This document shows, piece by piece, positions 2,714-25,988 of a stretch of 64,000 nucleotides of DNA. The stretch comes from Curvularia clavata. Lineage: Eukaryota. The first letter of the stretch is position 1. Each line of letters begins with the position of its first letter. A program made the position numbers and the translations under genes. Location: positions 434,001 through 498,000 of the forward strand of contig CP089281.1 of assembly GCA_023920165.1 (NCBI GenBank). Direction: 5' to 3'. The notes under the pieces were generated by a model that was not told the DNA's origin, did no database searches, and was given only the letters and a program-made list of their open reading frames with translations.

Positions 2714-2772
2714 GGAGTAAATTTACTTATAAGCTTATAGATATTTTTTTTTATAAATATTATAAACTAATA

Positions 2773-3160: not shown

Positions 3161-3162
3161 AT

Positions 3163-4699: not shown

Positions 4700-6983
4700 A
4701 TTCTATACTATCTTTATTGATAGCTATAAAATTGTTTAACTATTTAAATTTACGTTTAATTTCATCTACAAGATCTAAAAGAAAATAGCTTAATTAAACT
4801 ATCTATAACTAGCTTGATAATAATATAAATGATGTTTAATAGACTATTGTAGTTTAAATATTAATTTCAAAGTAATATAAACTCAAAGTAAAACTTTAGT
4901 CTAAGAAAAGTTAATATCAGATAGAAGTATTATTATATTTTATTAGAGTAAAGTTAGAGATAGTAGAAATTAAGAAGGTAGAGATAAAAAATATCAATAT
5001 CGCTAATATAAAAAAGAAAGTTAAATATATATTAATCTAGTTTTATAGAGCTAGATAACGTGGTTCACAAGCGAGCGGCTCACCCAACCGAGCGGCTCAC
5101 GTCCCACCAGCGCGCCGACGTTGACACTACAACGCGTTATGTCTCAGCAACGCGATAATCAATTAACTTATTCTAAATTAGATCTTTAACTTGCTCTTTT
5201 TAATATCTAATTATAACGTGTTTAAAGCTAAAGATGTACTGTCTCTATCTATAACGTACCTTAAAGAACTTTATCTTACTAATGCGCTAGAAGACGCTCT
5301 TAACGCGACTATAAACCGAATTTAAAGCGTCTAAATAAGCTAGAAGAGGAGGCTATAGTTGAGCGTATTCTTAAAAAGTCTGCGTGAGGATTTGCGTTTA
5401 TAAAGGCTAACGTTTAAGTAATAGCTAATAAATTATTATATAAGTAGGAGAGTAATCTTACTAGTAAAAACTAGATTAATAACTTTATTAAGTAAACTTC
5501 TAAGATCTATATGTGCTAGAGCCGTCTCTATACTTACTAGCGAGTCGCCTATAAGAATCTAGTAGCTATCTAACGCTAGTTTAATTTAGTCTAGGCGATA
5601 AAGTAGAAGTAGAGTATTATAGACGACGATATCTATAACTTTAATAAGACTAGCTTTATAATAGATAAGATTTTATTATAGTTAGTTATTATAGGCTTAG
5701 AAGAATATAGTAAAAAGAAGTAGATATAGTTAGATAACTATAAGTAGGTTACTGCGATTTAAGACGTAGGCGCGTCAGGTCGCTAGATACTACCTTTTAT
5801 TATCTTTATAGGTAAAGTACTTATTAACATCTAGTTTGAAAATTTGCTTGCTAACTAGATTCTTAAAGTTAGTTCTAATAGCTAGATAAATAATTAGCTT
5901 AGTATTATTTAGCTAGAGCACTTTAATATCTATACAAAGAGGTATACTATAGGTAGATATTAACTACTAATTATTAACGGCTATAAGAGCTACTACTCCG
6001 TTGAATTTTAAAATCTTTATAAAGAGAAAAATATCGTTCTTCTCTATATATCTGCGCACTCGTCTTACCTATTACAGCCTCTTAATATCGCCTACTTCCT
6101 ACTGTTAAAGCGCAAATATGGCGATACTATTTTAGGTTTAGCACGTAATTATACTAACTATATTAATAAGAAGACTTTCCTACTAGCCTTTAAAGTAACT
6201 TTTAAGTAGTCTATTATAAAGAAGAATATCTAAGCTAGCTTTAGAGGCGCTAGTCTAGTTCTATATAATCTATAGGCTATGCTATTAAAGCTTAATATAG
6301 TGGTGCAGACACCATATTAATTACTGTGATAGACAGCCGTCTAAGAGGTGTAGACACCACGTAACGCGCGCGAGATTAAGACTTAAATTAGTCTTATTTA
6401 ATAGAGCGTAAGAAATTACTATAGGTCTTCTACTAATTCACTTACTAAATAGATCGCGCAGTTAAATAAAAAGACTTAGCAGATAGTATATAAGATAGTG
6501 CTTCTAATAGAAAAAATTACTACTCTTTAAACAGTTCTTAATAAGTTAAATAAGTGTAAGAGCTATAAGCAGCAATATATATAGATAGAAAAGACTCTTA
6601 CTATAGATAAAGTTTAAAAAGTATTAGTTAAATAGATAGGTAGTAGTCGTGGCGACGGTAAAAGTGCGTTAAAGAGGGTGCGAGAAGAGAGGTAGTATGG
6701 GCGTTATAAGTAGACTAGACATAATACTTATATCTATATAGTTAAGATAGATAGTATAAATAATAGCAGCAATTCTAATAATTAAATTAGTATATTATAA
6801 TAGTTTATTAACTATAATAAAAGACCGTAATAACGTATCGACGTTGGCGCGCTGGTAGGGCGTGAGCCGCTCGGTTGGGTAAGCCGCTCGCTTGTGAACC
6901 ACGTTATACTATAACTATTAGTTTGAAAATTGAAATATAATTTATAAAATATTCTATAAATTGTTCTATAAAAGGCTGAAGCT
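4700..6983 (+). mobile_element. Copy D (3' part) of the repeat family, interrupted by the pogo element
   Basis: Joining 5057 to 6907 restores TATAGAGCTAGATA..TATAACTATTAGTTT as in copy C (4262-4295); ends AAAGGCTGAAGCT at 6971-6983; left boundary approximate. Confidence 0.7.
5058..6904 (+). mobile_element. Fot1/pogo-family (Tc1-mariner superfamily) DNA transposon, full length (1847 bp), RIP-inactivated
   Basis: ~70-bp TIRs starting ACGTGGTTCACAAGCGAGCGGCT; TA duplication at 5056-57 and 6905-06; RIP-mutated DDD motifs IYNFNKTSF (from FDETGF, ~5632-5658), IINGYKSY (from DGHxSH, ~5971), HSSYLLQPLNI (from HSSHLLQPLD, ~6057), degenerate C-terminal CCHC ~6697. Confidence 0.95.
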
Positions 6984-8229
6984 AACTATTATAGTATATA
7001 AGTCTATTTCCTATATTTCTTATACATCTATTTTTTATACTATTTATAGAGATATATTATTATATTTAAATCTAGTCTATAGTTACTCAAATTTAGCTAT
7101 ATATATATATATGCTAATCTTTTCTATATGAGATAAGTAATTACTTTTTCTATTTAGTTCTAGATATCTACTTTTCTAAAAACATATCTTATTTCTTTTT
7201 TAAAGCTAGTTTTACAAGTAATTATTATTTTAGTTTTTTTTTTCTGTTCTATTTTATATCTCTTATAGAGTTATCTATATCAAACTATATTTAGTTTGCT
7301 ATTTCATCTTTTATATATATACTAGCTATAAAAATTTGATTTCATTCTTTTTCAATCTTATTAAATTTATAGTATAAGTTAATACTAGTAAGAAATATTT
7401 ATAATTTTATATGGTCTCTATTACACTTTGTAAAAATAACTATTTTCAATTTGTTAATAGATTTCTGTTTATTTAAAATAGCTTTTAGCTAATTTATAAG
7501 CAAATTTGTAATATTTTATGTAGTAGTATTTTATTATATATAAGCTGTAGCGTTTTATCTAAAATTCTATAGCTTTTATGTATCTAAATGAGGTTATAGT
7601 TAATTTTAAAAAGTATTTAGTTTTTTTATACTACTCTAATCTAGTATCTTATTATTAATTATTAGTTAGCTTACTAGTTTAGAGATTGAAACTAGTTTTC
7701 TAGTATTAGTTCAAAACTACAAGTAATTATATAATATCTTATATCTTATTTAGATAATCTATTAGTTAAACTTCTCTGTAGAATTTAGTACTAGTTTAAA
7801 TGTTATACTAAGTTAAGCTATATTTCTCTAGTATTTATTTTTAATCAGAGTAAATTAGTAGAATCGTAATAAATAGTATAATTACTAAGTAATTTTAACA
7901 AAAAAGAGTTATAGAAATATAACTAACAGTAAAAGTAATCAATTCTAATTAAAACTAAATAATAAAATATTAATCTTATTGAGTAAAGAAAGTTATAGAA
8001 AGGTATAGTATATATTAACTATAATAAATATAATAATCAAATCTATTCTATTTTTATATCTATTATTTCTACTTCTACTATTCTATCTATCTTACTTATA
8101 TAAAATAGTTAAAGTAGTATTACTATTTTTTTATATACTACTATTTTAGATAGTTAGCTTTAGTGAAATAGTATACTATATAACTACTACTCTATAGCTT
8201 TAGTACTAAAATAATATTATTCTAGGTAA

Positions 8230-10560
8230 TTTCCTTTCTTCTATAGAGGCTTAATCTTTTAGCTTATCATTTTTAATATAGAAGCTATAAAGCTATAAAT
8301 AGATAATCTAAGTAAATCTAATACGTAGAATTCAATATAAAGGCTACCTATTAAGAATAATATTATAAAAAGCTGCTAGATTTAAAATGAAAGGCTAAAT
8401 TTAGATAATACTATTAAAAGATATGACACTAGATAGGTTATAGAAACATTTTTGAAATAATATGATATAAATTATAAAGAAATCTTTATGTATTCTGATA
8501 AATTTAGTATTATTAGATTAGCATTATCTATATTCTGCTATTGAGATTAGGAAATATTTACTTAAAATATAAAATAAGCTTTTTCTAATATAGGATGATA
8601 TGATAAGATTTTACTAGCCTAACTACTGATTAGATTAGAAGTATATATTTCGACATATGCTTTAAAAACTATAATAAATAAAGCTTCAATCAAATATATT
8701 CAAGATATAATAATTATAAAACACTATAATAATATAGTCTATGGACTGAATAAAGCTTCGTTTAGATTGAAGCAAGTATCTAGATATTAATAATCATTTC
8801 TAGCAAATCTACTAAAATAACTAGATTTTCGTTTACTAAAAATAGGTAACAGTACTTATATCTATAATCAAAAGCTGATTATTCTAGCTATCTACGTAGA
8901 TGATATATTAATATTTGATAAATTTATAAATCTATTAGATAATTTATATATAGAAATATCTAATATTTCTAAATTCAAGATAACTAATGTAATAGAAATT
9001 AAAGAATTTCTTAGTATAGAAATTGTTAGGGATATAGTAAGTAAATCTATTATAATTACTTGATATAGCTTTATAAATAAAATAATATCTAAATATATTA
9101 AGCTACTAAATAAGCTAAAATCTATATCCATAGCTGTAGTCTTGTATAAAATATTTAAAGAAATAGTTTAAATATTATTTTTTATATTGAAATTAACTTT
9201 GATAAATATGATTTAGATCTAGCTTTTGTAATACTATATTAGTATATAATCTAATTTCTTTTTTATATTTATTATTTCAATATCTTCTATTTTAAATTAC
9301 TATTTTTATCTATATTATCATTATCATTATTACTATCACTATTTATATCTACTTCTCTATGCATATATATATTATCATCTATTTAGTATAGTCTTAATTA
9401 GATAGGATAAAGTATTATATCTATCTGATTATTATGTTTTACATACTATAATATTATTTCTATATTTCTATATCTATTTATAATAATTTTTCTAATTAAA
9501 TAAATTTTACATTCTAGTTATAACTGAATATCTAAAGTCAATGATATTACTTTATTTTTTTTGATTGACTAGTAGCTAAAATTATAAATTCTTAATATTT
9601 TTTATCTATTAATAAATATAAAATTTTAGTCTTATAACTATTATAGCTATATTATATTTATATACATAGTATAAATAGTATAGAATATAGTTATTATCAT
9701 TAGATATTCTTATATCTAAAAAGTCAAACCATTTAAAAAGCTACTTCTGTAGCTCTATAGTAACTTTACTTAAAAGTAGTTTATATAAAATAAATCAAGT
9801 ATCTAAAAAAAGATCTTAGGAACTATATATTATCTAGAGAGATTAGATATAATTTAAAAAAAAGACTGAAAAAGGAGCTAGAATAAGCTATATATTTAAT
9901 ATTATTAACAGATTTCATCAAGCTTTTAATGAAATTTATAAGAGAAAAAAATTCATAGATAGTATATATTATTCTAATATTATATATTTTGATTATTATC
10001 ATACTTTAATAATCTTAGAGTTTTTTCTATTTATTATTAGCTTTCTAATAGACTTCTATTTCTTTAGAGTAATTATAATTAATCTTATTTAGATCTATAT
10101 TATATTTTAGATTTAATATATAAATTCAAAAATATACAACTCTAAAATATAAAAATTAAAAACTTTATATTTCAATTTTCTTCTAAATTTAATGCTTTTT
10201 TCAATTTTTAAATTTTAGTAAACTAAAAGGCGGCCTTCCTTTATTTTAAGACTAGTTTGTAATATTAGCTAATTACTATAGGCAAGCTAGTTGATAGAAA
10301 TAAAACTAGAAATAAATATATCTATAGCTATAGGCATAAAACTAGCAAAAAAGTAAGAAAGAGTTAATATTAAATAAACTGAAGATTTTGAAAAAAAAAT
10401 GAGTAGTTTAATATATTCATCTATATTTACTTAGCTGGATCTAGTATTTAGTGTGGATTATTTAGCTAGATATATAAGTAATCTTAGCTTAGAGTATCAT
10501 AAATAACTAAATAATATATTTAGCTATTTATCAAAAAGGAAAACCAAATATTAAATTTAA
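8230..10560 (+). mobile_element. Ty1/Copia retrotransposon reverse-transcriptase remnant, split by an insertion
   Basis: LNKASFRLKQ (from LxKALYGLKQ, ~8746), IILAIYVDDIL (YVDD 8893-8904), EFLSIEI (~9004); resumes after 10317 with a PDLxFSVxYLARYxSN-like motif (~10430-10485); many RIP stops; boundaries approximate. Confidence 0.85.
9140..10316 (-). mobile_element. Copy E of the ~1.2-kb repeat inserted in the Copia RT
   Basis: Reverse-complement match to family tail (9140-9260) and head (10200-10316, AAAAGGCGGCCTTCC...GGCAAGCTAG); flanked by 17-bp near-direct repeat. Confidence 0.8.
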
Positions 10561-10596
10561 TATAATGATTTAAATCTCAATAATATGTAATTAATT

Positions 10597-12484
10597 GGCT
10601 TCGGCCTTTTATAGAATATTTCATAAAAAGATTTATAAATTATATTTTATTTTTAAACTAATAGTTATAGTATATCTAGCTCTATAAAGGTAGATTAATA
10701 TATTATTAACTTCTTCTATCATATTAGCGATGTTAATATTTTTTATTTCTATTTTTTTAACTTCTACTATCTCCAACTCTACTCTAATAAGATATAATAA
10801 TATCTCTATCTAATCTTAACTTTTTTGAAACTAAAGTTTTACTTTAAATTTATTTATTTCTATTTTTGTTTTTTATAACTGGCTCGCCTGTGGTAATTGG
10901 CCAATATTAAAAAGTAGTCTTAAAATAAAGGCAGGCCGCCCCTCAGCCCACCAAAATTTAAAAATTCAAAAAAGGACTATATCTAAGGGGGGATTCAAAC
11001 GCAAAGCTTTAAGCTTCTATATTTTAGACTCTAGTACCTTTAGCTTTATATATTAAATCTAAAATATAGTATAGATCTAAATTAGAATAACAATAATAAC
11101 TCTAATAAATAGAAGTCTATTAAACAGCTAATAATAGATAGAGAAAACCCTAAAATTATTAAACTATAGTTATAATAAGGACATATAGTATTAGAGTAGC
11201 ATATACTATTTATAAATACCTACTCTTCTGCTCTTATAAATTTAATCTCTAGCTTAGTAAAATCTATCGATAGTATTATATACTTAGCTTATTTTATCTC
11301 TTTCTTTAGTCTTCTTTAAATTTAGATTAACTATATCTAATCTCTCTAAATAATAAATAGTCTCTATTACTCTCTCTTTAGACGTCTAGCCTACTCTCTA
11401 TAAACTACTCTTAATTAAAGTTGCTATAGAGCTATAGAAGTAGCTCTTTAAATAGCTTAACTTTCTAGATATAACTATACCTAATAATAATAACTATATT
11501 CTATACTATATATACTAGATAGATATAATATAACTATAATAGTTATAAGACTAGAAGATTACGCTCATTAATAGATAAAACGCATTAAGAATTTACGACT
11601 TTAGCTACTAGTTAATTAAGAAGAATACAGTAAAACTACTTACTTTAGATATTTAGTTATAGCTAGAATATAATACCTATAAAATCAGGAAGACTATTGT
11701 AGATAAGTATATAAATATAGAGGCAGCGTTATAGCATCTAAAAAGTATAGCTTAGATAGATACAACGCTCTATTTTATCTAGTTAAAACTACGCTAGTTA
11801 GACGACGATACAGACACAGACGCGGAGGTAGACATAGATAGTGATAGCAACAACGATAGTAACGTAGATAGAGACGGCGATATAGAGATAGAGGATATTT
11901 AGATAGTAGACGTAAGGAAGAGGTTGGACAACATGCTAATATAGCGTTGCAGAGGCTAGATCTAAACTATATTTATTAAGTTTAATTTAAATATAAAAAA
12001 TAAAACCTAAAGTGTTTCTCAAAATGTTTCGCAAAAGGCCGAAGCCGTAGCTGAATATATAATACTATTAATAAATTTCACTAAGCTAGAGATTAAATTT
12101 ATAAAGATAGCAAAGTAAATATTTATAAATAGTATATACTATTTTAATACTATTTATTATTATTATTCTTATAATTTAATAATTTTAAATTTTCTTTATC
12201 TATTATTAGCTATCCAATAAGCTTCTATTTATTAGATCTATTATTATTATTCTAATTTAAATCTATACTATATCTTAGATTGAACATATAAAACTAAAAA
12301 ATACTCAAGTTTACAATATAGAAGTCTAAAGTCTTAAATTTAAATCCTCTTTTAGATATAGTCTTTTTTTAAAATTTTCAATTTCAGTAGACTAAAAGTC
12401 GGTCTATCTTTATTCTAAGACACCTTTTCATATTAGCTAATTACTACAGACGAGACAGTTATAAGAAATAAAAACCGAAATGAG
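10597..12484 (-). mobile_element. Copy F of the repeat family (minus strand), split by copy B
   Basis: GGCTTCGGCCTTTT at 10597-10610 is the reverse tail; 12047-12484 is the reverse of the family 5' third. Confidence 0.7.
10852..12046 (+). mobile_element. Copy B of the ~1.2-kb repeat (close to copy A)
   Basis: CTGGCTCGCCTGTGGTAATTGGCC...GGCAGGCCGCCCCTCAGCCCACC head; tail AAAAGGCCGAAGCC 12033-12046. Confidence 0.85.
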
Positions 12485-12489
12485 TACTA

Positions 12490-13555
12490 ATACTTGATTA
12501 GTAGACTTTTCAAAATTATTTTTAGAGTAGGTTAAATTAGTCTTAGATAGAGATCTTATCATATTTTATTATAATAGAGTTAGAAATAGTTAAAGTTGCA
12601 AAACTAGAAATAGAAATTCTTAATATTACTAACAACAGAGAAAAAGTTATTAATGTATTAATTCAGCTTTATAGAGCTAGATAGATTATAACTATTATTT
12701 TAAAAATTAACATACAATCTTTAAAATATTATATACAAGACTAACGCTAATGTTTTCTTGTTTATTATTTTTTATTCTAATTTTACCATCTTTATACAAT
12801 AGCATTTATACTTTCTACAATTTTTAGAGATATTTAGTTATGTACGTTCATATCCTTATATACTAGTAAAGTATCTTAGTTTTAGCCTAAAGTCTATTCT
12901 ATAATCACTACTCTATAGAGATTATTACTTTCTAATATGTTGTCTAATGGTTTATTACCTATAGCTATTGTCAAGGAGAGATCCTTTGCTTATTATCTAT
13001 AACATATAGATAAGCGACTTATAGGAATAAATCTATAAATCAAGATTCTAGATTTCATCTCCAAAATTAAGAATATTAATACTCGAGAATTACAAATTTG
13101 ATAATCTATATTTAGATTTTTTTTACATTTAATCTTTTCCTCTTAAATTCTTAAATCTTAGTAGACCAAACCGTTGTCTATCTTTATTTTAAAATTAGTT
13201 TTTAATATTAGCTCATTGCTATAGACGGGCTAGTTATAAGAGATAAAAATAGAAAAAGATTTAACTATCTATAGCTAGATATTTAATAGAGTAGCTATTA
13301 TTATTTTATAACTCAGTTCTATATACACCAGTACTAGCCTTTCAAATTCAAAACTAGATTATTTTTTCTACTTGAGATTTAGACTCTAAGATTTCATATT
13401 TAAATTTCTACCTAGATAGTGTTTTTTTATTTAAACTTTTTAATTTTCAGTAGACTAAACGATAGTCTACTACTCATTTATGTGATGTATATTTTGGACT
13501 AATTCCCGCAGGCGAGCCAATCATTGGAAATCAACATAGAAGTAAATAAAATATT
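12490..13555. repeat. Further fragments of the repeat family (3' piece on +, two 5' pieces on -)
   Basis: 12490-12750 matches copy C 4080-4354; head motifs in reverse at ~13160-13260 and ~13440-13555 (CCGCAGGCGAGCCAATC). Confidence 0.65.
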
Positions 13556-13709
13556 ATATAGATGACTGAAGCCAAAAATTATAATATATGTGTATAGTAG
13601 TGAAATAGTACAATATATTTTTCTTCTAAATAATAATTATATACTAGAGTATATAGATATAAGTCTATTTAATATTATATCTATTATTTCTTTAACGTAT
13701 ATATTCTTA

Positions 13710-14126
13710 CTTGAATTTACTAAGCTAAATAAGATTGTCTATAGATAGAATCCTAAATTTATGCCTAGATAGGTAGATAGTCTACTACGCAGAATTTCAC
13801 TAGTTACTAAGTTTACCACGTCATCCTATCACAAGGATAGTCTAAGACCTGACTTTCAAGACATTATACTTATATAATTACGTATAGAATAGATAACTAT
13901 AAATTTTAATCTTATCTTTAAAATTGTTATAATATTATCGATTATAGAGATCCAATTTTATAACAAAATAAATTTATCATTTTTCAAACTTATATAATTC
14001 TATTCAAATTTACTTAGCTAAGTAACATAGCTTATAGACAGAATATCAAAGTTTTGTCCAGGCAGCTAGATAGTCCACCACACAGAATCTTACCAGTTAC
14101 CAAGTCAACCACGTGATCCCGTTACA
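13710..14126 (+). repeat. Two diverged direct repeats resembling LTR 3' ends
   Basis: 13710-13833 and 14003-14126 align (GATAGTCyACyACrCAGAAT...ACCACGT.ATCC..TyACA), both ending in ACA like TG...CA LTRs. Confidence 0.55.
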
Positions 14127-15022
14127 ATAGGTTCATCATAGTTACACAATAACTATATATCGGAACAGTATTAGACTGTAGAGGAGAGGTTTGAGTAAGG
14201 GCAATAGCTATAGTGACCCACAAATCCATGAGGTACTTTAAACCATTGTGAATCAATTTCGCTGAGAGTCGTATCAGGCTGAGTGGAATGCGCAGCTGAC
14301 TGATCGGCGCTGCTTACTCGTCCTGCTCCTTAGTTATTAGGTATTTCGTCTTAAGCTGCGTAGAAAAACAGAACGGCATCCCCTGACCCCATGGAAGAGG
14401 TACGTTCCAGCATCTTGGCATCTTTTGTTTCACGGAGTGAAAACAAAAGTTCTGTCAGCCTACCAAGAATCGTGGTCACAATCCTGCAGATTCTCGAGAT
14501 TACTCATGAAGAATACATGAGTAACTAGCTGATGTTGAACGCCTGAGATTAGCTGGCTCAACAACAACTGGCAAAGGGTGATGTGTGCTACTATTCGGAT
14601 CATGTCTGGGGAGATTCATTTGCCTAGGGAAGTTTCATTGCTTGATCCATGTAACTTACCTAGACTGCAATCAGGATCTCCACATTTAGCCGAATGCATT
14701 GCGCTGAATCTTGCCCCTGCTCTAAATACACGTTTTGCCGAGGTCTCGTAGTTTTACTATTGAGATTACTAATCTTATGCTTTGAAATCCACTTCTGTAG
14801 ACATACTCCTCCAGTCGGGTTAATTCGTCTCTATTCAGCTTCTGCTTAATAATTCTTGTCTTTTGATTCCTTGTTATATAAGCGAGAAGAGCAGTGGGTG
14901 ATAGTTAGCGCTTCACCAATACTTAAATAAGAATGCCCCAATCGAAAGATCAAATAAGCCACGCACTGCTCCTTCTTCCGCTCACGGCTGTCATTTATTC
15001 CTTTTTTGCAAAGCCCTCGAAA

Positions 15023-16075
15023 ATGCCAAATCAAACTGCACTTGTCGTGTCCGAGATTGGCGGACGTGTATCAGCAATGACAGACTGGCCCATCCCTAAA
15101 CCAGGAGACAAGCAAGTTCAGATACGCGTAACAGTAGCAGGCCTTAATCCACATGACCAAAGAGCTCGCGATAACGGCCTTTTTATCAAAGACGCTCTAC
15201 CAGCCATCCTCGGGCACGACATCACTGGCGTTGTCACAGCTGTCGGATCTGACGTCTCCAAGTTCAAGACAGGAGACAGGGTTGTCTCACAATCACAACT
15301 TGTCGGATATCATCAGAAAGCACTACAGCAATATGCAATAGTAGATGAGAGTTTCTCCTCAAAGATCCCAGAAGGCTTCACGGATCATGATGCTGCAACA
15401 ATCCCAACCAATGCAGTCGCAGCACTCGTAAGTCTTTTTGACGCGAGTGGACTGGATATTCCTCCGCCGTGGAGGAAAACAGATGCAGCCTTTGACTATG
15501 CTGGAGCTTCACTGCTCATATTAGGTGGGGGGAGCAACTGTGGGAGATTTGGTGTCCAGCTTGCCAGAATGGCTGGTATTGGGAAGATTGTAGTTGTCGG
15601 CGGCTCTGAGGAGGAACTAAAAGGATGGGGTGCGACACACGTTCTGGACAGGCATGGTGGTGATCAAGCAGTCATCAATCGCATCCGCGATGTTGTCGGA
15701 GATGACCTTATTTATGCTTTCGACGCCATAAACGTACCTAGAGACCAGCATCTTGCCATCAGCGCACTTTCTTCGAGCAAGGCTGGGAGAGTTGCTCGCC
15801 TGCGCTTCTCTACTGGGGCTATTGATGAATCGAAGATCATTGGAGAGAAAATCGCGGGATACGAGATGCGCAACGTGCTCGGCGTATCCCATATGAAACC
15901 AGATACTGCAGAGCCATTCTGGAATCAGCTGGAAGAGTACCTGAAGAACGAGAGTCTGGTGCCGTTGAAATACGAAGTTGTTAATGGACTCGATGCTGGA
16001 AAAGTCAATGAAGTGTTAGATCGGTACAGAGACGGTATGAAGGTGGTCCAGACGCACTTCGAAGTGTCCAAGTGA
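15023..16075 (+). CDS. Medium-chain dehydrogenase/reductase (enoyl-reductase/quinone-oxidoreductase-like, GroES fold)
   Basis: Intronless ORF; PKPGDKQVQIRV, GLNPHD, PAILGHDITGVVTAVG, GGGSNCG nucleotide-binding loop; ATG at 15023 preferred over 14933. Confidence 0.85.
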   Translation: MPNQTALVVSEIGGRVSAMTDWPIPKPGDKQVQIRVTVAGLNPHDQRARDNGLFIKDALPAILGHDITGVVTAVGSDVSKFKTGDRVVSQSQLVGYHQKALQQYAIVDESFSSKIPEGFTDHDAATIPTNAVAALVSLFDASGLDIPPPWRKTDAAFDYAGASLLILGGGSNCGRFGVQLARMAGIGKIVVVGGSEEELKGWGATHVLDRHGGDQAVINRIRDVVGDDLIYAFDAINVPRDQHLAISALSSSKAGRVARLRFSTGAIDESKIIGEKIAGYEMRNVLGVSHMKPDTAEPFWNQLEEYLKNESLVPLKYEVVNGLDAGKVNEVLDRYRDGMKVVQTHFEVSK

Positions 16076-18416
16076 GTTATGGCATTTGCAGAACCAGCAA
16101 ATATAGTACCGCTCTAATCTGCGCGTCGCTTTCTGCGTACAGTATTAGGCTAGCGATCTGTTCGCTTGCGCGCGGGCTATGCAACACCAACATGATCAGT
16201 GCAGACCTATATTTCCCTCAACCCTATATAAATGTTTTCCTAACACTACATAGCTCTATCTAAATAAACTCAATTCTTACCACAGTCTCAACCATAGATT
16301 CAGTTAATTGAAAGCGCGAATGTGAACGATCAGAAGCCCAGCGTATGTATGTTCTATCTCAAGATAAGGCTGGTGTATCCACTGCGGAAATCGCAGACGA
16401 GCTGCGCGGCGCTGCTCACAACGCTGGATCTAATTAACAGTATCGCAATATAATAGCTATAATTCAATAGTGTCACTAATACAACAGGCCGAGCGCCCTT
16501 GAGACAGCTCCTCGATAGAATCTCGGTTGTTTTACAGAATTGGGGTGCTACCTAGAGCACCTGTGTTCTGTACATCGCCCGACCAGCATTCAGGCAATAC
16601 GCTTAGACAATCGGCGGAACCTGTCTCTGACAAGTAAACCAAAACCATACGGACAGGGTAGATAGCTACTTATTGAATACAACCTCTTGTATTTTCGTGG
16701 TTACTCCTTTAGCGCAGCCCCTTATATCGCTCAGTGGCGATTAGAGTACCGTGCAACATCTATTCCTCGGGTATGTATCAAGATTCGAACGCCTTTGCGG
16801 AAATCATCAAGGAGTCTAAGTTTTGGGCATTTAGTTAGTTGAACCTACTTTAAGGTGGTAATACATCCCATTTCTCAACAAATGCAATGGCCATGGCGAT
16901 AGCACAGTTTTCTTCGTTTCAAGACTGAAAAAGAGGTTATCCTCGTTGCTAATACTACCTTGTGCTGTGTAGGAGAGTGCGTGTGAACGTAGCTAAGCTT
17001 CGTTCAGCGTCGCTGCAATGTCCTCCTTAGTAAGACGACTAATCAAAATAAGAGTTGCAACAGTTCGATAGTTATTAACCTGAAACACGATCACGTGTTG
17101 GACAATATTTGTCATCTGTAGCTCGATGGTATGAACTGCTATTTCTATGTCCTTGTTAAAATTACAGGCGTACCGATAAGGTTCGTAATCACAGTAAAGC
17201 GTCGCTGTTGAGTCAATCAGTATTATCAATAGACGTGATAAGGGTAAATGCAATTGATAAGACGATTTTTATGGGCGCAAAGGTGCGTTTTCCATGTTTC
17301 TTCAGGGGAATGGTGCTTCCATATACTGATCTTGCGGTTGAGCTCGAGGCGAAATCGCTTTCGCTAGCATTTGACAGCGAGAAGGCGCCATGATTCCAAA
17401 GACGACGTAGTAATAGATGATTCCACACATTTAAATCAATAAGAATGGCTCTACCAGATATTTACCTTTCCGAGCTGTCGTTGTACATAGAAAGACAAAA
17501 TCGCTGTAGATACAATAGTTGCTTGGAACAATTTGAGCAGCATTCTAAACGAATATAGAGCAAACGCTAGTGCAAGTTAGTTATGATATGCTGCGATATA
17601 GCGGCGGCCCAAGCTCTTCTTCTTCCCCAGAAAAGTCAAAAACACCATCTGGAGTACCAACATTGACAAGCATCGGCAGCATAGTCGATAGCTAGGACAA
17701 TATAAGAGTAGGAATTTTGATCAGTTATGGATTCTGTGAGCACCACTGATTGCTTTAGCGGTTACGAGGGTATACATGCTCTTTAAAGGTGATTCAAGAG
17801 CGTTGTCATGCTCTATGAAAACTTCTGGGACGCATTTATCACTGCACATCAAGATCGTGTAATACGTAGTAGTTTCGCCAGTCTAGTAATTCTTTTCATT
17901 CTGGGATCTGTCAGTTGAATTAGGAAACGAAGTCTTGCTCATTAGAGTTTGTAAATTTTAATTTCTTTTTCGAAAAATTCTTGGTTTTGGTAAAAGTATC
18001 TTGTACGAAAATCTAACTTAACTTGGCTCTAGCCTCTTAAATACCATTCTATCAAATGTTTTATAGATTGACTTTTCGACTCCATACAACTAAGTACTTC
18101 TCAAAATGGTTCTTAAAAGGTATATCAACATTCAAAAATGATACTCTGTTTTAATGTTTCTCATTTGTTTTATTGTTTTCAATGTCTATTGATTGTTACT
18201 AAGTCTCAGCCTGTACATCCCTCACTACTCTGATTCTGGAAATCCACATAATGTTAGATCTCAAGTTAGCGTCTTAGGGAGTATTACACAGTACAAAAGC
18301 CATCTTTTGTTCAGTTTTAATTTTGCCCGCTGGCTACCGTGGCTTACGATTCGATTGCATGCAAGCTACAAGCTATATACTCCTCAGTCAGCTGCAACAA
18401 CACGAAGATAATAGTC

Positions 18417-19384
18417 TTAATCTTTTAAGCGTTCGATAGTCGCTTTAATCTCTCTTGCTGAGTATAGCAATTCCTGCTTCTCACTGGGTACCAAGGGTAT
18501 TGGTAGCGTGCGCTCAATCCCCGATCTTCCAAGCACGGCAGGCATGCTCAAAGAACAACCAAGTTCTTGCTGCATATGACTAACGGGATATACTTGTCGC
18601 CGATCCAGAAGAATGGACGTACAGATTGTGGATATGACGGAGGCAATACCGAAGGTAATAGCACCCTTCTCTTCAATGATACACTCCCCTTCACGCTTGC
18701 ATTTCAAAGCAATTCCAACCTTGTCAACCCCATCTGAACCCGCTATGTCATCTATTGGGACGCCACCGATCTCCACCAGAGACCAGGGTACAAACATGGA
18801 TCCACAATGCTCCCCCAGTACCATAGCATCGATCGAGCTTGCAGCAACCTAGAAAACCATCAGTGTTACCTTTAACTGAGGGTAAAATGTTCATGATTTA
18901 CCCCAAATTGATCGGAAAGCATCCCTCTTAGCCTGACAGAATCAAGGAACGTTCCTGTGCCAATGACTTGGGTAGGTGGAAGACCAGATAGTTCCTGAGC
19001 CAGCGACGTCAGTACATCGACTGGATTCGTTACTATAAGTAAGATCCCGTCTCGTTTGAATGGCTTCATTGCTTCGATGATGTTCCGGAGCGTTGCCGTG
19101 CTTCGATGAAGGTATTGTAAACTCGTCTCTCCTATCCCCCTTTTAGCTGCGGCCATAATGATAACAATGTCAGCTTGTGCAGCTTCCTTGTATGTTGCGG
19201 CTTGAACGTGAGCCCCGTTTTGTTCCTTAAAGGTTGAATTTTTGAGGTCTCTGACTTGACCATCTCGGTGGGATGATCGTTTATCAACAAGGAGTAATGT
19301 GGCACAGATATTGTGGAGGATCAATGCATAAGCTGCTGCTCCGCCCACCTCTCCAGCGCCTATGATCGCGATTTTTGGAGACAT
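18417..19384 (-). CDS. ldh: L-lactate/malate dehydrogenase family protein; exons 19384-18902 and 18848-18417
   Basis: KIAIIGAGEVG Rossmann motif, VTNPVD, IGTGTFLDSVRL, LGEH, KGAITFGI; 53-bp GT-AG intron 18849-18901 joins the two ORF-track pieces in frame. Confidence 0.92.
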
Positions 19385-19911
19385 GATAAAACTTCCAGTG
19401 AGATAACTGATCTTTGGGTAGAGACCTGCCCACTGCCCTGGAACGCTTTGTATATAATGAGATGGACTGGGGGTAAAGTGATGGGAGTATGACAAGAGAG
19501 CTTTAGACCCTGCATAGCCTAGAGGCGCTAGTTAGAACGTATGGTGGTGCCATGGCGTGTTGGGGATAATGGTTTTCAAGTGAACCCCGCCTGAACAAGG
19601 AATATCCCTTTAGCTCATCAAGCTGCTGATGATCACCAAATACTATGACTAAAATCTGGGTAGAGCTGAATATCAACTATAGCTGGTCATTCGATCTAAC
19701 CATATGATTTGAATCTGGTCGTCATGGTACGATGGAACGATCATGCCATAAGCATCAATGTCTTCAGCTCGAAGGCCATTGGGTTCATCTTCTGCTTGTA
19801 TCCTACAAAGCCATCCCAGTTCTATCCCCTAAGCATTCGACGAGTCAACTATGCGTTCACTCTGAGATTAAGACCTCTCCACTTCTATTTGTTTATAGCA
19901 CCTTTCCTACC
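19385..19911. promoter_or_regulatory. Shared divergent promoter of ldh and ppsA
   Basis: 527 bp between head-to-head ATGs; TATA-like TATATA ~19451-19456; CreA-type SYGGRG at 19467-19472 (+) and 19585-19590 (-). Confidence 0.55.
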
Positions 19912-22350
19912 ATGACAAGCGACAAAACTCACTCAAAACTATCAAACGATGGTACTTGTCTGGTCCATGACTTCGAAAACGTTACACGCAGTGACATAAG
20001 CGTTGTCGGTGGTAAAAATGCGTCCCTAGGCGAGATGATAGGGGCATTAAAGACCGAAGGGGTTGCTGTACCCCCCGGTTTTGCGACTACAGCCCAATGC
20101 TACTGGCAATTTGTAACATTCAATAAGATCAACGATAGGCTGGAGAAGTTGATCTTGGACTGGCAGATGGAAAAGATCAGTCTTGCGGAAACTGGAAAAT
20201 ACGCTCGAGACCTATTCCTCAGAGGAGACTGGCCGGATGAAGCCAAGAACGCGATCGTTTCGGCCTATCATCGGCTATCAGTCAAAACGGGTGTCGAAAA
20301 TCCCAGTGTTGCCGTTCGTTCCAGTGCAACGGCTGAGGATCTACCGGACTCAAGCTTTGCTGGCCAGCAAGAGACATTCTTGAATGTCTCAGGTGAGCGG
20401 GCGCTGCTAAACGCTTGCCGAAAGTGCTATGGCTCGCTGTTCACTGACAGAGCGATATTCTATCGACAGACAAGAGGATTTAATCACCTGAAAATTGCAC
20501 TATCTGTTGGCATTCAGCAGATGGTTCGATCGGATCTGAGTGGTTCCGGCGTTATGTTTTCCATCGATACTGAGAGTGGTTACGACAAGATCATTCTGAT
20601 CAATGCGGCTTGGGGCTTAGGCGAGAATGTAGTACAAGGTGCTGTCAATCCAGATGAGTACCAAGTCTTCAAGACCTTTCTCAATAAGCCTGGCGTGATA
20701 CCAATCATCGAGAAGAGGGTGGGAGGCAAAGACAAGAAGATGGTTTACAGCAAGGGTGAATCATACACTAGAAATGTCCCTACCTCGAAAGCAGAACGGT
20801 CGGCTCTAGTGCTCAACGAATTGGAAATTCTGCAACTTGCGCGTTGGGCTTGTACGATTGAACATCATTATGGCTGCCCGATGGACATGGAATGGGCCAA
20901 AGATGGTATTACCAATCAACTCTTCATCGTCCAAGCTCGGCCAGAGACTGTTCACTCGACTCGAAAAGTAGGGAAGTTCCATGAATATTCCGTAAGCTCC
21001 AAAGGTAAGACATTGACTACAGGCTGCTCTGTCGGCAATGCAGCTGTAGCGGGACGCGTATGCATGATCGAGTCCCCTACGGAAATTGATTTGTTCATCG
21101 ACGGATCGATCCTGGTAACCGAAACCACAGACCCTGATTGGGTTCCCATCATGAGAAAAGCGACAGCTATTGTGACTGACCATGGAGGTCGAACATCACA
21201 CGCTGCTATCGTAAGTCGAGAACTTGGAATCACCGCTGTTGTCGGCACAGGCAATGCCACGTATGTCTTGCACAGCGGGCAAGACATCACCGTCTCCTGT
21301 GCAGAGGGTGAGACAGGTTATGTCTACGATGGTACAGCCAATATCACCTCAAAGACCATCGATGTCTCAAATCTTCCACGTACGAGCACAGAGGTAATGC
21401 TGAACCTAGCGGACCCGAGTGCAGCCAATCGTTGGTGGCGATTGCCTTGCGACGGCATCGGTCTGGCGCGAATGGAGTTCGTGGTGAGCAATCATATTCG
21501 CATCCATCCGATGGCACTCCTGCATTATGATCTGATAAAAGACGAATCTATCAAGAGGGTGATCGAAGATCTAACCGTGGGCTACAAAGACAAGTCACAG
21601 TACTTTGTAGATAAATTAGCACTCGGCCTTGCTCGCCTATGTGCTGTGGCATATCCAAAGCCAGTCATCATTCGACTGTCAGATTTTAAAACCAACGAAT
21701 ATGCGAATCTCATCGGTGGTGCCCAACACGAGCCGAAGGAGGAAAATCCAATGATCGGCTGGCGTGGAGCTTCCCGATACTACTCCTTGGGTTACAAAGA
21801 TGGGTTCACTTTGGAATGTAAGGCCATCAAGCGACTGCGAGAGCAACTGGGATTCAAAAACGCAGTGATTATGGTTCCATTCTGTCGCACCGTTGGAGAG
21901 GCGGTCAAAGTGCAGAACGAGCTGACGAAGAACGGACTGAAACGCGGTGAAGATGGCCTGCAAATTTATGTCATGTGTGAGATTCCATCGAACGTAATAC
22001 TGGCGCATGAATTTGCGAAGCATTTTGATGGTTTCTCTATTGGATCCAACGATCTTACACAGCTCACGCTTGGTATTGACCGTGATTCAGAAGAGCTCGC
22101 ACCTCTGTTCTCCGAACAAGATGAGGCGGTCAAGTGGATGATTGCAGAAGCCACATCAAGAGCACGCAAAGCTGGACGCAAAATCGGACTGTGCGGACAG
22201 GCTCCCAGTAACGATCCATCGTTTGCATCGTTTCTTGTGAAGTGTGGAATTGATTCTATATCCGTCAGTCCTAGCAGCTTCCTTGCGGTGAAATATAACG
22301 TTGCGAAGGCGGAAGAGGAAATCAAGCGGGGCCTTAGAGCGGTCTCTTAG
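19912..22350 (+). CDS. ppsA: Phosphoenolpyruvate synthase (pyruvate, water dikinase), intronless
   Basis: VGGKNASLGEM, VAVRSSATAEDLPDSSFAGQQETFLN, DMEWAKDG, phospho-His motif GGRTSHAAIVSRELG, EENPMIGWRGASRY, DGFSIGSNDLTQL, GLCGQAPS; ~812 aa from ATG 19912. Confidence 0.96.
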   Translation: MTSDKTHSKLSNDGTCLVHDFENVTRSDISVVGGKNASLGEMIGALKTEGVAVPPGFATTAQCYWQFVTFNKINDRLEKLILDWQMEKISLAETGKYARDLFLRGDWPDEAKNAIVSAYHRLSVKTGVENPSVAVRSSATAEDLPDSSFAGQQETFLNVSGERALLNACRKCYGSLFTDRAIFYRQTRGFNHLKIALSVGIQQMVRSDLSGSGVMFSIDTESGYDKIILINAAWGLGENVVQGAVNPDEYQVFKTFLNKPGVIPIIEKRVGGKDKKMVYSKGESYTRNVPTSKAERSALVLNELEILQLARWACTIEHHYGCPMDMEWAKDGITNQLFIVQARPETVHSTRKVGKFHEYSVSSKGKTLTTGCSVGNAAVAGRVCMIESPTEIDLFIDGSILVTETTDPDWVPIMRKATAIVTDHGGRTSHAAIVSRELGITAVVGTGNATYVLHSGQDITVSCAEGETGYVYDGTANITSKTIDVSNLPRTSTEVMLNLADPSAANRWWRLPCDGIGLARMEFVVSNHIRIHPMALLHYDLIKDESIKRVIEDLTVGYKDKSQYFVDKLALGLARLCAVAYPKPVIIRLSDFKTNEYANLIGGAQHEPKEENPMIGWRGASRYYSLGYKDGFTLECKAIKRLREQLGFKNAVIMVPFCRTVGEAVKVQNELTKNGLKRGEDGLQIYVMCEIPSNVILAHEFAKHFDGFSIGSNDLTQLTLGIDRDSEELAPLFSEQDEAVKWMIAEATSRARKAGRKIGLCGQAPSNDPSFASFLVKCGIDSISVSPSSFLAVKYNVAKAEEEIKRGLRAVS

Positions 22351-24604: not shown

Positions 24605-25630
24605 TCACTGCCTTGCCGCATCCCTCTCGATCATTTTCTGGAAAGTATCCTGCCACACCTTTTGCACAGATTCAGGTCCCTCATCCCAGAATTTACCATG
24701 CAGCGCATGTATCCCCGCATCGAAATCTCTCTGATTGACAAAGTTCGAACTCCACTTCCAGTGTAACTCACGCCAAGGCATTGGGCCCTTTCTGCTAAAG
24801 ACGTAGTTTAGCAGGTCTTGCTCCATGAATTGCGTTCTGAATCGGTCCTTGATGTTTAGGACGCGCATAAGGTAATCAAACATTCCCTGCTGCGGTGCGA
24901 TCATCAAGAATCCACCGTTTGCGTAGTCACCATTTAAGGGTGGTACAGGGTGCTCATACCCGCCCATTCCACCATTCTCAGGACGCGCAGCGAAGAGCCA
25001 TTCTTCCGGCAATGGCTCTTCGTCTTCCTTAATCAAATCTGTGCGGTCTTGAAACATAGTCCTAGTTAGGTCGGCGACGTTAGGCTCGTTGAAAATGCCG
25101 TCCATTCGATTCATAATGAGATAATCAGCGTCAAGGTAAAGTATACGAGAGTATTGGGTTTGCTCGAAGATGCGCAGCTTAGTAAATTGCTCGGTCCACC
25201 TTTCCGTGGGTGTGTGAATCCATGGTGGTACAAGGACGTCTTCAAATCCAATTACAGTTGCGCCATCTTTGCGTAAGATTTCACGCATCGTCTCTGGTAC
25301 CTGTTTACCACAGAATACAACAAAGTCGATATCTGGGTCTTCTATTCGCGTTTCAGGTGCATATAGAAATTGGTAAGTCAACAAACGAGTGGAGTTGAAA
25401 TAATTATCGTTGCTAACTTGGCCAGTCAAGAAAGTCGCGACAGCGACAGCTGGATGTAGTTGCGAAGAACCTGAATGATAACTTTGGAAGCGAGGACCAT
25501 CGGCAGAAACAATTCTCCACGAGATTCCACGAGTGAGGTAGAAAAATATCGCATAGAATAAGGATAGACTGAGGGCTGTGAGAACACTGACAATGTAGAA
25601 TCTTTGCTTTAAAAACATTGTTGATATCAT
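24605..25630 (-). CDS. Glycosyltransferase family 8 protein (type II membrane, glycogenin/Gnt1-like)
   Basis: N-terminal TM helix, FTKLRIFEQTQYSRILYLDAD (DxD), ANGG, EQDLLN; start codon uncertain. Confidence 0.88.
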   Translation of the reverse strand: MISTMFLKQRFYIVSVLTALSLSLFYAIFFYLTRGISWRIVSADGPRFQSYHSGSSQLHPAVAVATFLTGQVSNDNYFNSTRLLTYQFLYAPETRIEDPDIDFVVFCGKQVPETMREILRKDGATVIGFEDVLVPPWIHTPTERWTEQFTKLRIFEQTQYSRILYLDADYLIMNRMDGIFNEPNVADLTRTMFQDRTDLIKEDEEPLPEEWLFAARPENGGMGGYEHPVPPLNGDYANGGFLMIAPQQGMFDYLMRVLNIKDRFRTQFMEQDLLNYVFSRKGPMPWRELHWKWSSNFVNQRDFDAGIHALHGKFWDEGPESVQKVWQDTFQKMIERDAARQ

Positions 25631-25988
25631 TTGAAAAAGTGATTGCAAGTAAACAAAGGCATATCAGCAAAGACACAAGGAAGTTCTGTTGATATAATTT
25701 ACTATTGACTTGAAAGCGAACACTACGGACGCAAGTGATGGCTCGAGTATATAAGAGTTTGGCTTATATCAGCGCTAACTGCTTCTATATGAGGAATTAC
25801 GAAAGTCTCGATTATAAGTTTTATCCCGACGGCACCAGTACTATCTTACATCAGCACTAACTACTGTGCGGCGTGAGTTGGCTGGGTACATTGCGCTCCC
25901 AATTGCTCCATGTTAAACGCAGACGAGAATACAGTGGGCACGTAAGTGAATTGATCCAAGAGCATCAAAAATGAAGAAAATACACATT

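What the first reader, a model, noticed from the sequence alone, without database searches (positions are those of the whole stretch)
18417..22350. Head-to-head LDH-family + PEP synthase module: candidate two-gene lactate/pyruvate-to-PEP pathway in a fungus
Seen: the two genes share a 527-bp divergent promoter and sit isolated between long noncoding stretches beside a TE block. Known: LDH converts lactate to pyruvate and PpsA converts pyruvate + ATP + H2O to PEP in bacteria; fungi normally reach PEP through pyruvate carboxylase plus PEPCK. Inference: a co-regulated cluster giving a bacterial-style gluconeogenic shortcut or a hypoxia-recovery route. From memory a similar pairing may exist in Aspergillus fumigatus (unverified), so it may be a conserved but little-studied cluster rather than wholly new.
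Basis: partly seen in the sequence, partly recalled or inferred. Interest (0 to 1): 0.75.

Follow-up and report, generated by a model that had tools for sequence, protein, structure and literature searches.

The report
Conserved fungal PEP-synthase/LDH-like gene pair
A bacterial-type PEP synthase gene and an altered lactate-dehydrogenase-like gene sit side by side in this fungus and in many other moulds, pointing to a little-studied shortcut around the pyruvate step of sugar synthesis.

Summary
An intact 812-aa PpsA gene (19912-22350, +) and a one-intron LDH-family gene (19384-18417, -) lie head to head, 527 bp apart. Both are transcribed.

The pair is not a local accident. PpsA and this LDH-like gene are adjacent, or within 3 genes, in 9 further named species of four Pezizomycotina classes and on 6 metagenome contigs. 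On all 6 contigs the genes are tail to tail, so what is conserved is linkage, not the shared promoter.

Fungal PpsA forms one clade nested among Rhizobiaceae sequences, which fits a single bacterial acquisition. It passes the PEP-synthase equivalog cut-offs.

The partner descends from fungal L-LDH but belongs to a remodelled clade:
- none of 62 members keeps Gln102;
- 60 of 62 lack Arg109;
- the three members tested score below the L-LDH equivalog cut-off.

"LDH makes pyruvate from lactate" is therefore unproven. In Fusarium pseudograminearum the adjacent pair is down-regulated together with PEPCK and FBPase (PMC10791928).

My best reading is a cytosolic 2-hydroxyacid/pyruvate-to-PEP gluconeogenic bypass, at moderate confidence. 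The rivals are a fermentative direction, or a changed substrate or role for the LDH-like partner. I found no description of the linkage in the literature searches.

The parts
19912..22350 (+). PpsA (pyruvate, water dikinase / PEP synthase) CDS, 812 aa, no intron
   Evidence: Pfam finds PPDK_N, PEP-utilizers and PEP-utilizers_C. NCBIfam scores 1075 bits for NF005057 (cut-off 598) and 1047 bits for TIGR01418 (cut-off 739.75). It aligns end to end with Neisseria PEP synthase 2ols, E 1.6e-246, and keeps the GGRTxHAAI and CGQ motifs.
18902..19384 (-). LDH-family gene, exon 1 (residues 1-161: Rossmann fold and substrate loop)
   Evidence: Pfam finds Ldh_1_N. The product is identical to P0121. The loop reads ..AAAKRGIGETSLQY.., with Arg at position 102 and Ser at position 109 by alignment to Thermus LDH.
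18849..18901 (-). 53-nt intron (GT..AG on the minus strand)
   Evidence: The model is. Contigs in X1, X3 and X14 skip exactly these 53 nt (table 5). Intron-like breaks occur at the same residue in L047, L058 and L074.
18417..18848 (-). LDH-family gene, exon 2 (residues 162-304 plus stop; His195 region)
   Evidence: Pfam finds Ldh_1_C. The GEHCGS motif keeps His195.
19385..19911 (.). 527-bp divergent intergenic region; both 5' UTRs reach into it, leaving at most about 254 bp (19491-19744) uncovered by RNA contigs
   Evidence: Based. It holds no CCGN7CCG site, and its 3 SYGGRG sites match background density.

Best explanation
This is one copy of a two-gene metabolic module conserved across Pezizomycotina. 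One gene is an intact bacterial-type PEP synthase (ATP + pyruvate + H2O -> AMP + Pi + PEP). Fungi appear to have acquired it once from a Rhizobiaceae-like alphaproteobacterium. The other gene is a fungal paralogue of NAD-dependent L-lactate dehydrogenase. It keeps the NAD fold, the carboxylate-binding Arg171 and the His195/Asp168 dyad, but its substrate loop has been rebuilt, with Gln102 and usually Arg109 replaced. I infer that the two enzymes work together at the cytosolic pyruvate node. The LDH-like enzyme would interconvert a 2-hydroxy acid (most simply L-lactate) and pyruvate, and PpsA would pull pyruvate directly to PEP for gluconeogenesis. That would bypass the usual pyruvate carboxylase plus PEPCK route. 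Shown here: gene structure, transcription, conserved linkage, the origin of each gene, and the altered active site. Inferred: substrates, direction of flux and physiological role.
For: Anatomy and expression are established.

PpsA identity: it passes the equivalog cut-offs and keeps the catalytic motifs in alignment to 2ols.

Linkage in named species:
- consecutive locus tags or accession numbers in Aaosphaeria arxii, Chaetomium sp. MPI, Thozetella sp., Fonsecaea monophora, Penicillium maclennaniae, Paraphaeosphaeria sporulosa (two assemblies) and Pseudogymnoascus australis;
- 3 accession numbers apart in Cladorrhinum;
- HYE68_008620/008621 in Fusarium pseudograminearum (PMC10791928, passages).

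Linkage in DNA: 6 of 80 metagenome LDH loci carry PpsA next door (L002, L003, L020, L047, L058, L074). All 6 belong to the fungal type. Two paralogous pairs occur in Fusarium-like contigs.

The association follows the LDH subtype. The 5 linked loci whose loop is covered lack Arg109, and the 3 unlinked fungal loci with enough flank (L004, L060, L080) have it.

Origin of PpsA: fungal sequences are monophyletic and nested among Rhizobiaceae, with support 99/99 (FastTree, 125 rows) and 100/100 (IQ-TREE quick, 53 rows).

Origin of the LDH-like gene: its clade (65 rows, support 99) lies inside fungal LDHs and apart from bacterial ones. Only 1 of 80 prokaryote PpsA loci has an LDH-family gene within 4 kb, and that one is canonical.

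Co-regulation: PEPs (-2.14) and LDH (-2.43) fall together with PEPCK and FBPase in F. pseudograminearum (PMC10791928, Table 3, passages).
Against: The partner is not a canonical L-LDH:
- Gln102 is kept in 0 of 62 clade members and Arg109 in 2 of 62, against 55 of 58 and 58 of 58 in the other LDHs;
- TIGR01771 scores are 256, 266 and 276 bits for three members, below the 303.55 cut-off, while a canonical fungal LDH scores 310.5;
- 8 of 62 clade members even lack His195.

The simple rule 'linked means no Arg109' has one exception: P0133 of Pseudogymnoascus is linked and has Arg there.

There are no activity or flux data. Orientation differs between the window (divergent) and the 6 metagenome loci (convergent), so co-regulation through one promoter is not general.

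Bimuria, Westerdykella, Orbiliomycetes and Trichoderma appear in the PpsA list, but no LDH-like of theirs is among the 120 listed. That list is truncated, so this is not proof of absence.

In A. nidulans delta-gprD, pdkA is down while lactate is up (PMC3641053, passages), which is ambiguous as to direction.

No whole genome is held, so the presence of pyruvate carboxylase, PEPCK and PSRP could not be checked.
Confidence: 0.5

Rival explanations
1. The module runs in the fermentative direction. PpsA would convert PEP + AMP + Pi to pyruvate + ATP, gaining more ATP than pyruvate kinase. The LDH-like enzyme would reduce pyruvate to regenerate NAD+ under low oxygen.
For: The PpsA reaction is close to equilibrium and is used glycolytically in some archaea (recalled, not from a call). 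The same linkage and expression evidence fits either direction.
Against: In F. pseudograminearum the pair falls together with PEPCK and FBPase while hexokinase, PFK and pyruvate kinase rise (PMC10791928, passages). An enzyme lacking Arg109 is expected to reduce pyruvate poorly (recalled mutant data). No hypoxia expression data were found (one search returned 2 papers, neither informative).
Confidence: 0.2
2. The LDH-like partner no longer handles lactate/pyruvate. It would be a neofunctionalised dehydrogenase for another 2-hydroxy or 2-oxo acid, or a partly or wholly non-catalytic partner of PpsA, so the module makes or controls something other than lactate-derived PEP.
For: Active-site lining positions 102, 109, 112, 194 and 236/237 are replaced in a coordinated way. 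New clade-specific residues (Arg40, Gln43, Cys211, Cys259, His252, Gln254) are conserved at 89-100%, which points to a maintained new function rather than decay. Scores fall below the equivalog cut-off. Eight members have lost His195. The remodelled subtype, not the canonical one, is the one linked to PpsA.
Against: Arg171 (62 of 62), Asp168 (59 of 62) and His195 (54 of 62; 9 of 9 named linked members) are kept. The chemistry therefore remains that of a 2-hydroxyacid dehydrogenase. Pyruvate is the only 2-oxo acid that PpsA is known to use. No alternative substrate is suggested by any neighbour gene.
Confidence: 0.25
3. The adjacency has no functional meaning and is only a neighbourhood inherited by descent.
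For: The extended neighbourhoods differ between loci, and no third conserved gene was seen.
Against: Linkage survives across four classes, through an orientation change and through duplication of the pair, although the flanks are not conserved. It tracks one LDH subtype. The two genes are co-regulated in Fusarium (PMC10791928).
Confidence: 0.03

Closest known systems
Bacterial PEP synthase PpsA (EC 2.7.9.2), e.g. Neisseria meningitidis 2OLS and Rhizobiaceae PpsA
   Same: Same three-domain architecture and the same phospho-His and Cys motifs. It is 67-70% identical to Rhizobium and Ciceribacter PpsA and passes both equivalog models.
   Different: It is encoded in a fungal nucleus, and the fungal sequences form their own clade. 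Whether the bacterial regulator PSRP (PF03618) accompanies it is unknown: the 120 rows shown were all bacteria or unnamed, and the list is truncated. Its conserved neighbour is an LDH-like gene, which is seen in only 1 of 80 prokaryote loci.
Canonical NAD-dependent L-lactate dehydrogenase (EC 1.1.1.27; TIGR01771), including the fungal LDHs of chytrids, Mucoromycota and Verruconis
   Same: Same fold and domains, with Arg171, Asp168 and His195 kept. The best solved relative is Thermus LDH, E 7e-49. The clade descends from within fungal LDHs.
   Different: Gln102 becomes Arg, and Arg109 becomes Ser. Thr246 becomes Ile in the window protein by the alignment. Across the clade, positions 102, 109, 112, 194 and 236/237 are replaced. 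The three members tested score below the equivalog cut-off.
Aspergillus nidulans AN5843 (pdkA), annotated as PEP synthase
   Same: It is a named fungal member of the same enzyme class. It is reported 3.5-fold down in delta-gprD together with gpdC and phk (PMC3641053, passages).
   Different: I did not see its sequence or its neighbours. No enzymology or mutant phenotype was found (AN5843 in this one paper, AN5842 in none of the 25 papers listed of 36 found).
E. coli ppsA-ppsR divergent pair (recalled, not from a call)
   Same: A PpsA gene is divergently paired with a dedicated partner gene.
   Different: The partner here belongs to the LDH family, not to the kinase/pyrophosphorylase family. 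The divergent layout is not conserved among fungi.
HGT-derived PEP synthase and PPDK in anaerobic gut fungi (bioRxiv 10.1101/487215; search listing and start of abstract only)
   Same: A bacterial pyruvate-node enzyme acquired by fungi.
   Different: It concerns a different fungal phylum and lifestyle. I did not read the paper's text, so relatedness of the genes is unknown.

Membership tests
PEP synthase / pyruvate, water dikinase (TIGR01418, NF005057) | Three domains in the order ATP-grasp (PPDK_N), phospho-His mobile domain, PEP/pyruvate-binding domain | tested here: met
   PF01326 at residues 90-415, PF00391 at 457-526 and PF02896 at 548-861 of the long ORF.
PEP synthase / pyruvate, water dikinase (TIGR01418, NF005057) | Whole-protein score above the curated equivalog cut-off | tested here: met
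   1075.3 bits against a cut-off of 598, and 1046.9 bits against 739.75.
PEP synthase / pyruvate, water dikinase (TIGR01418, NF005057) | Catalytic His (with the Thr two residues before it) and the C-terminal Cys motif | tested here: met
   GGRTSHAAIVSRELGI aligns with GGRTCHAAIIARELGI of 2ols, and GLCGQAPS with GICGQGPS. The roles of these residues are recalled.
PEP synthase / pyruvate, water dikinase (TIGR01418, NF005057) | PEP-forming activity | not testable with these tools
   This needs an enzyme assay.
L-lactate dehydrogenase, NAD-dependent (EC 1.1.1.27, TIGR01771) | Ldh_1_N plus Ldh_1_C fold | tested here: met
   for the domains. One search gives 160 solved relatives, the best at E 7e-49.
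L-lactate dehydrogenase, NAD-dependent (EC 1.1.1.27, TIGR01771) | His195/Asp168 dyad and Arg171 | tested here: met
   In the clade, Arg171 is kept in 62 of 62 members, Asp168 in 59 of 62 and His195 in 54 of 62. The window protein has all three.
L-lactate dehydrogenase, NAD-dependent (EC 1.1.1.27, TIGR01771) | Arg109 on the mobile loop | tested here: not met
   The window protein has Ser. Arg is present in 2 of 62 clade members and in 58 of 58 other LDHs.
L-lactate dehydrogenase, NAD-dependent (EC 1.1.1.27, TIGR01771) | Gln102 (pyruvate specificity) | tested here: not met
   The window protein has Arg. Gln is present in 0 of 62 clade members and in 55 of 58 others.
L-lactate dehydrogenase, NAD-dependent (EC 1.1.1.27, TIGR01771) | Score above the equivalog cut-off | tested here: not met
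   256.4 bits against a cut-off of 303.55. P0128 scores 266 and P0150 scores 276.4. The canonical fungal P0173 scores 310.5 and passes.
LDH-like malate dehydrogenase (NF004863, TIGR01763) | Arg102 together with Arg109, and a score above the cut-off | tested here: not met
   Arg102 is present in the window protein, but Arg109 is absent. Scores are 200.7 bits against 283 and 142.5 bits against 351.85. Position 102 is His, Tyr or Trp in most of the clade.
Fungal metabolic gene cluster (co-located, co-regulated genes of one pathway) | Linkage conserved across distant species | tested here: met
   Nine further named species in 4 classes, plus 6 metagenome contigs (PMC10791928).
Fungal metabolic gene cluster (co-located, co-regulated genes of one pathway) | Co-expression | tested here: inconclusive
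   Both genes are present in the same four RNA-type runs, but contigs cannot rank expression. One published table shows joint down-regulation (PMC10791928).
Bidirectional-promoter gene pair | Divergent layout conserved among relatives | tested here: not met
   The window is divergent. The 6 metagenome loci are all convergent, with gaps of about 290-600 bp.

The most novel reading that the evidence does not exclude
After an ancestor of the Pezizomycotina took up a rhizobial PEP synthase, a duplicate of the native L-LDH was recruited as its dedicated partner and rebuilt, losing Gln102 and the otherwise invariant Arg109. The partner would now do something no canonical LDH does. Either it acts on a different 2-hydroxy or 2-oxo acid that feeds PpsA, or it serves as a PpsA-specific accessory or regulatory subunit in place of the bacterial PSRP. 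This would define an undescribed hybrid (foreign plus native) two-gene module of fungal central metabolism.
Probability: 0.3. Interest if true: 0.75.

Novelty: new variant of a known kind. Interest (0 to 1): 0.55.

Why it matters
Textbook fungal gluconeogenesis goes from pyruvate through oxaloacetate to PEP. A direct, bacterial-type PEP synthase that has been kept for a long time in many moulds, always beside one particular remodelled dehydrogenase, would change three things:
- metabolic models of these fungi;
- how growth on lactate, alanine or pyruvate is interpreted in plant- and animal-associated fungi;
- how 'LDH' annotations in Pezizomycotina genomes should be read.

The pair is also a clean natural experiment in two respects. 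It shows how a horizontally acquired enzyme becomes wired to a native paralogue, and how an enzyme family copes with losing a residue (Arg109) usually regarded as invariant. Everything needed to test it is ordinary: two recombinant enzymes and two knock-outs in a model fungus.

Tried and rejected
- Whole-genome search of the window's assembly: none is held. Copy number, PEPCK, pyruvate carboxylase and PSRP could therefore not be checked.
- PSRP in fungi: I took the PF03618 gene of a Rhizobiaceae genome and searched the protein collection. The 120 rows shown were all at least 74% identical, and every named one was bacterial. The list is cut at 120 of 8000, so this says nothing about fungi.
- PSRP next to the closest bacterial ppsA genes: none among 37 ORFs from 6 loci.
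- Promoter motifs: no CCGN7CCG in the intergenic region (13 in the window, chance mean 11.7). Three SYGGRG sites in 527 bp match the window's background density. Both motifs are recalled consensus sites.
- Extended cluster: the neighbours of the pair in L058 are a CoA-disulfide-reductase/rhodanese-like gene and an MCRA/oleate-hydratase-like gene. Those in the window are an MDR alcohol-dehydrogenase-like gene and a weak GT8-like ORF. They share nothing.
- Co-transfer of the pair from bacteria: rejected. Only 1 of 80 prokaryote PpsA loci (Hoeflea, L122) has an LDH nearby. That LDH is canonical, and the fungal LDH-like clade groups with fungal LDHs.
- Literature: 'phosphoenolpyruvate synthase' + 'Pezizomycotina' gave 0 papers. 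Searches gave nothing on the pair apart from PMC10791928 and PMC3641053. 'Water dikinase' returned nothing on the pair in the 20 papers listed.
- Earlier notes of this scan: nothing on this pair.
- I did not run a complex prediction, because I do not claim binding. I did not fold the LDH-like protein, because sequence already places it in the fold.
Full report
**What is in the window**

PpsA is a single uninterrupted ORF.
- The long frame opens at 19732. The start at 19912 (MTSDK...) gives 812 aa and matches the length of its relatives and of the called protein in the collection.
- Pfam finds the three PEP-synthase domains in the canonical order.

The LDH-family gene lies on the other strand.
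- It has two exons, 19384-18902 and 18848-18417, separated by a 53-nt GT..AG intron.
- The 304-aa product is identical to database protein P0121, which NCBI files as 'L-lactate/malate dehydrogenase [Curvularia clavata]', on a contig of the same length as the one bearing P0001.

**Expression**

Contigs of two runs from two studies (X1, X3) are about 99.7% identical to the window.
- They are labelled 'RNA?' by the tool. I read them as transcript assemblies for two reasons: the LDH contig lacks exactly the 53-nt intron, and nothing covers 19491-19744.
- They cover the LDH gene from 18300 to 19490 and PpsA from 19745 or 19802 to about 22499.
- Two root metatranscriptome runs (X11, X14) hold fragments of both genes, and X14 shows the same splice.

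So both genes are transcribed as separate divergent mRNAs. Contig depth cannot rank their expression.

**PpsA is a genuine PEP synthase of bacterial descent**

- It scores 1075 and 1047 bits against the two NCBIfam equivalog models, whose cut-offs are 598 and 739.75.
- It aligns from residue 20 to 791 with the solved Neisseria enzyme 2ols (E 1.6e-246) and keeps the GGRT-x-H and CGQ motifs.
- The best 120 of 8000 scored relatives are all 67-84% identical. They mix Pezizomycotina of five classes with Rhizobium and Ciceribacter.

I built two trees.
- FastTree, 125 rows: 42 rows named as fungi, 6 named bacteria, and 77 of 80 prokaryote loci. Three ORFs under 760 aa were dropped.
- IQ-TREE quick, 53 rows chosen from these.
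- In both trees the fungal sequences form one clade (support 99 and 100). That clade is nested within a group of Rhizobiaceae sequences (Rhizobium alvei, Peteryoungia, Ciceribacter; support 99 and 100).

This fits one acquisition followed by descent. Inside the fungal clade some groupings do not follow the species tree: Eurotiales sit with Leotiomycetes and Sordariomycetes. Later fungus-to-fungus movement or old paralogy is therefore not excluded. GC and GC3 of the gene match its neighbours, as expected for an old resident.

**The partner is of fungal descent but is not a canonical L-LDH**

Placement in the tree (124 rows):
- The window protein falls in a clade of 65 rows (support 99).
- That clade is sister to canonical Pezizomycotina LDHs (Verruconis, P0161, metagenome L004).
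- It lies inside a fungal LDH group with chytrids and Mucoromycota, apart from the bacterial LDHs.

Active-site residues (positions and roles recalled from the LDH literature):
- By alignment to Thermus LDH, the window protein has Arg for Gln102, Ser for Arg109 and Ile for Thr246.
- Across the 62 database members of the clade, position 102 is never Gln and position 109 is Arg in only 2 (P0133, P0156). The 58 other LDHs have Gln in 55 and Arg in 58.
- Positions 112, 194 and 236/237 are also replaced. New residues (Arg40, Gln43, Cys211, Cys259, His252, Gln254) are conserved at 89-100% within the clade.
- Arg171 (62 of 62), Asp168 (59 of 62) and His195 (54 of 62) are kept.
- Three clade members score 256-276 bits on the L-LDH equivalog model, below its 303.55 cut-off. 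The canonical fungal P0173 passes with 310.5.

This is the pattern of a maintained, changed function, not of decay. It means that 'LDH converts lactate to pyruvate' cannot simply be read off the annotation.

**The linkage is conserved, and it follows the remodelled subtype**

Evidence from names and numbering:
- Consecutive locus tags or accession numbers tie PpsA to the LDH-like gene in Aaosphaeria arxii, Chaetomium sp. MPI-SDFR-AT-0129 and Thozetella sp..
- The same holds in Fonsecaea monophora and Penicillium maclennaniae.
- It holds in Paraphaeosphaeria sporulosa, in two assemblies, and in Pseudogymnoascus australis.
- In Cladorrhinum the two are three accession numbers apart.
- In Fusarium pseudograminearum they are HYE68_008620 and HYE68_008621 (PMC10791928, passages).
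- Every species for which I could match both proteins to one assembly showed the linkage. I found no counter-example, but the sample is small and was chosen by what the lists happened to name.

Direct DNA evidence comes from a metagenome scan with an alignment of 42 clade members.
- Of the 80 loci kept, 6 also encode PpsA (L002, L003, L020, L047, L058, L074).
- All 6 are fungal-type. L003's PpsA is 97.6% identical to that of Fusarium redolens. L047, L058 and L074 break at the same intron position as the window.
- In the 5 whose loop is covered, position 109 is Thr, Thr, Ser, Thr or Ala.
- Three fungal LDH loci with enough flank but no PpsA (L004, L060, L080) sit among housekeeping genes, and all have Arg109.
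- Five further fungal-type loci are too short to judge.
- L002 and L003 look like two paralogous pairs from Fusarium-like genomes, with PpsA 78% identical between them. The pair therefore seems to have been duplicated, or kept, as a unit.

**What is not conserved**

- In all 6 metagenome loci the genes are tail to tail, with 3' ends about 290-600 bp apart. In the window they are head to head. The shared promoter is a local feature.
- The wider neighbourhoods share nothing.
- Only 1 of 80 prokaryote PpsA loci has an LDH-family gene within 4 kb, and it is canonical. The pair was therefore assembled in fungi, not imported whole.

**Function**

The only functional data I found are transcriptomic.
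- In F. pseudograminearum treated with an antagonist's filtrate, PEP synthase (-2.14) and the adjacent LDH (-2.43) fall together with PEPCK and FBPase. Hexokinase, PFK and pyruvate kinase rise (PMC10791928, Table 3 and one paragraph seen).
- In A. nidulans, AN5843 (pdkA) is called PEP synthase. It is 3.5-fold down in delta-gprD together with gpdC and phk (PMC3641053, passages seen).

On this basis I favour a gluconeogenic role. PpsA would pull cytosolic pyruvate to PEP, and the partner would supply pyruvate from lactate or a related 2-hydroxy acid. Neither protein shows an obvious targeting signal at its ends by eye (inference). The direction of flux and the partner's substrate remain inferred, and the rivals above are live.

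**Novelty**

Both genes are routinely annotated. Three things did not turn up in the papers found by my searches:
- the conserved linkage;
- its restriction to a remodelled LDH clade that lacks Gln102 and usually Arg109;
- the single rhizobial origin of the fungal PpsA.

Subscription-only literature and bioRxiv supplements were not searchable, and HGT surveys there may list the PpsA transfer.

Noticed in passing
window 1-14000: AT-rich block (GC 0.23) with RIP-like indices: TpA/ApT 1.36 and (CpA+TpG)/(ApC+GpT) 0.49, against 0.69-0.77 and 1.28 in the rest of the window. It holds only 4 open frames of 70 aa or more. Thresholds are recalled, and homology to transposons was not tested.
   Followed up: partly
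window 14933-16075 (+): A 380-aa ORF with ADH_N and ADH_zinc_N domains (a medium-chain dehydrogenase/reductase). It lies between the AT-rich block and the pair and is not found beside the pair in other loci.
   Followed up: partly
window 24605-25648 (-): A 347-aa ORF with only a weak glycosyltransferase family 8 match (E 3e-4, below the Pfam cut-off).
   Followed up: no
window 19732-19911 (+): The PpsA frame is open for 60 codons upstream of the accepted start, from an ATG at 19732. The RNA contigs begin at 19745 or 19802, so this ATG is not covered, and relatives do not extend there.
   Followed up: partly
proteins P0156, P0162, P0175, P0177, P0179, P0181, P0182, P0186; locus L007: A subset of the remodelled LDH-like clade has also lost the catalytic His195 (to Gln, Glu or Arg). 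The species include Clonostachys/Bionectria, Apiospora and Purpureocillium. These may be pseudoenzymes or use another chemistry. Whether they are linked to PpsA is unknown.
   Followed up: no
L058 737-2482 and 12638-14345: On a Eurotiomycete-like contig the pair is flanked by a pyridine-nucleotide-disulfide oxidoreductase with a rhodanese domain and by an MCRA (oleate-hydratase-like) gene. Both are bacterial-looking families, so this may be an island of acquired genes.
   Followed up: no
proteins P0064 and P0366 (Pseudogymnoascus australis); loci L002 and L003: Some fungi carry two PpsA copies. P. australis has ACLOAV_010316 and ACLOAV_010262, and only the latter is seen next to the LDH-like gene. 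Fusarium-like contigs carry two paralogous PpsA plus LDH-like pairs.
   Followed up: partly
L122 7379-8374 (Hoeflea sp.): This is the only prokaryote PpsA locus of 80 with an LDH gene nearby. The LDH is convergent, about 1 kb downstream, and has a canonical Gln102/Arg109 loop.
   Followed up: yes
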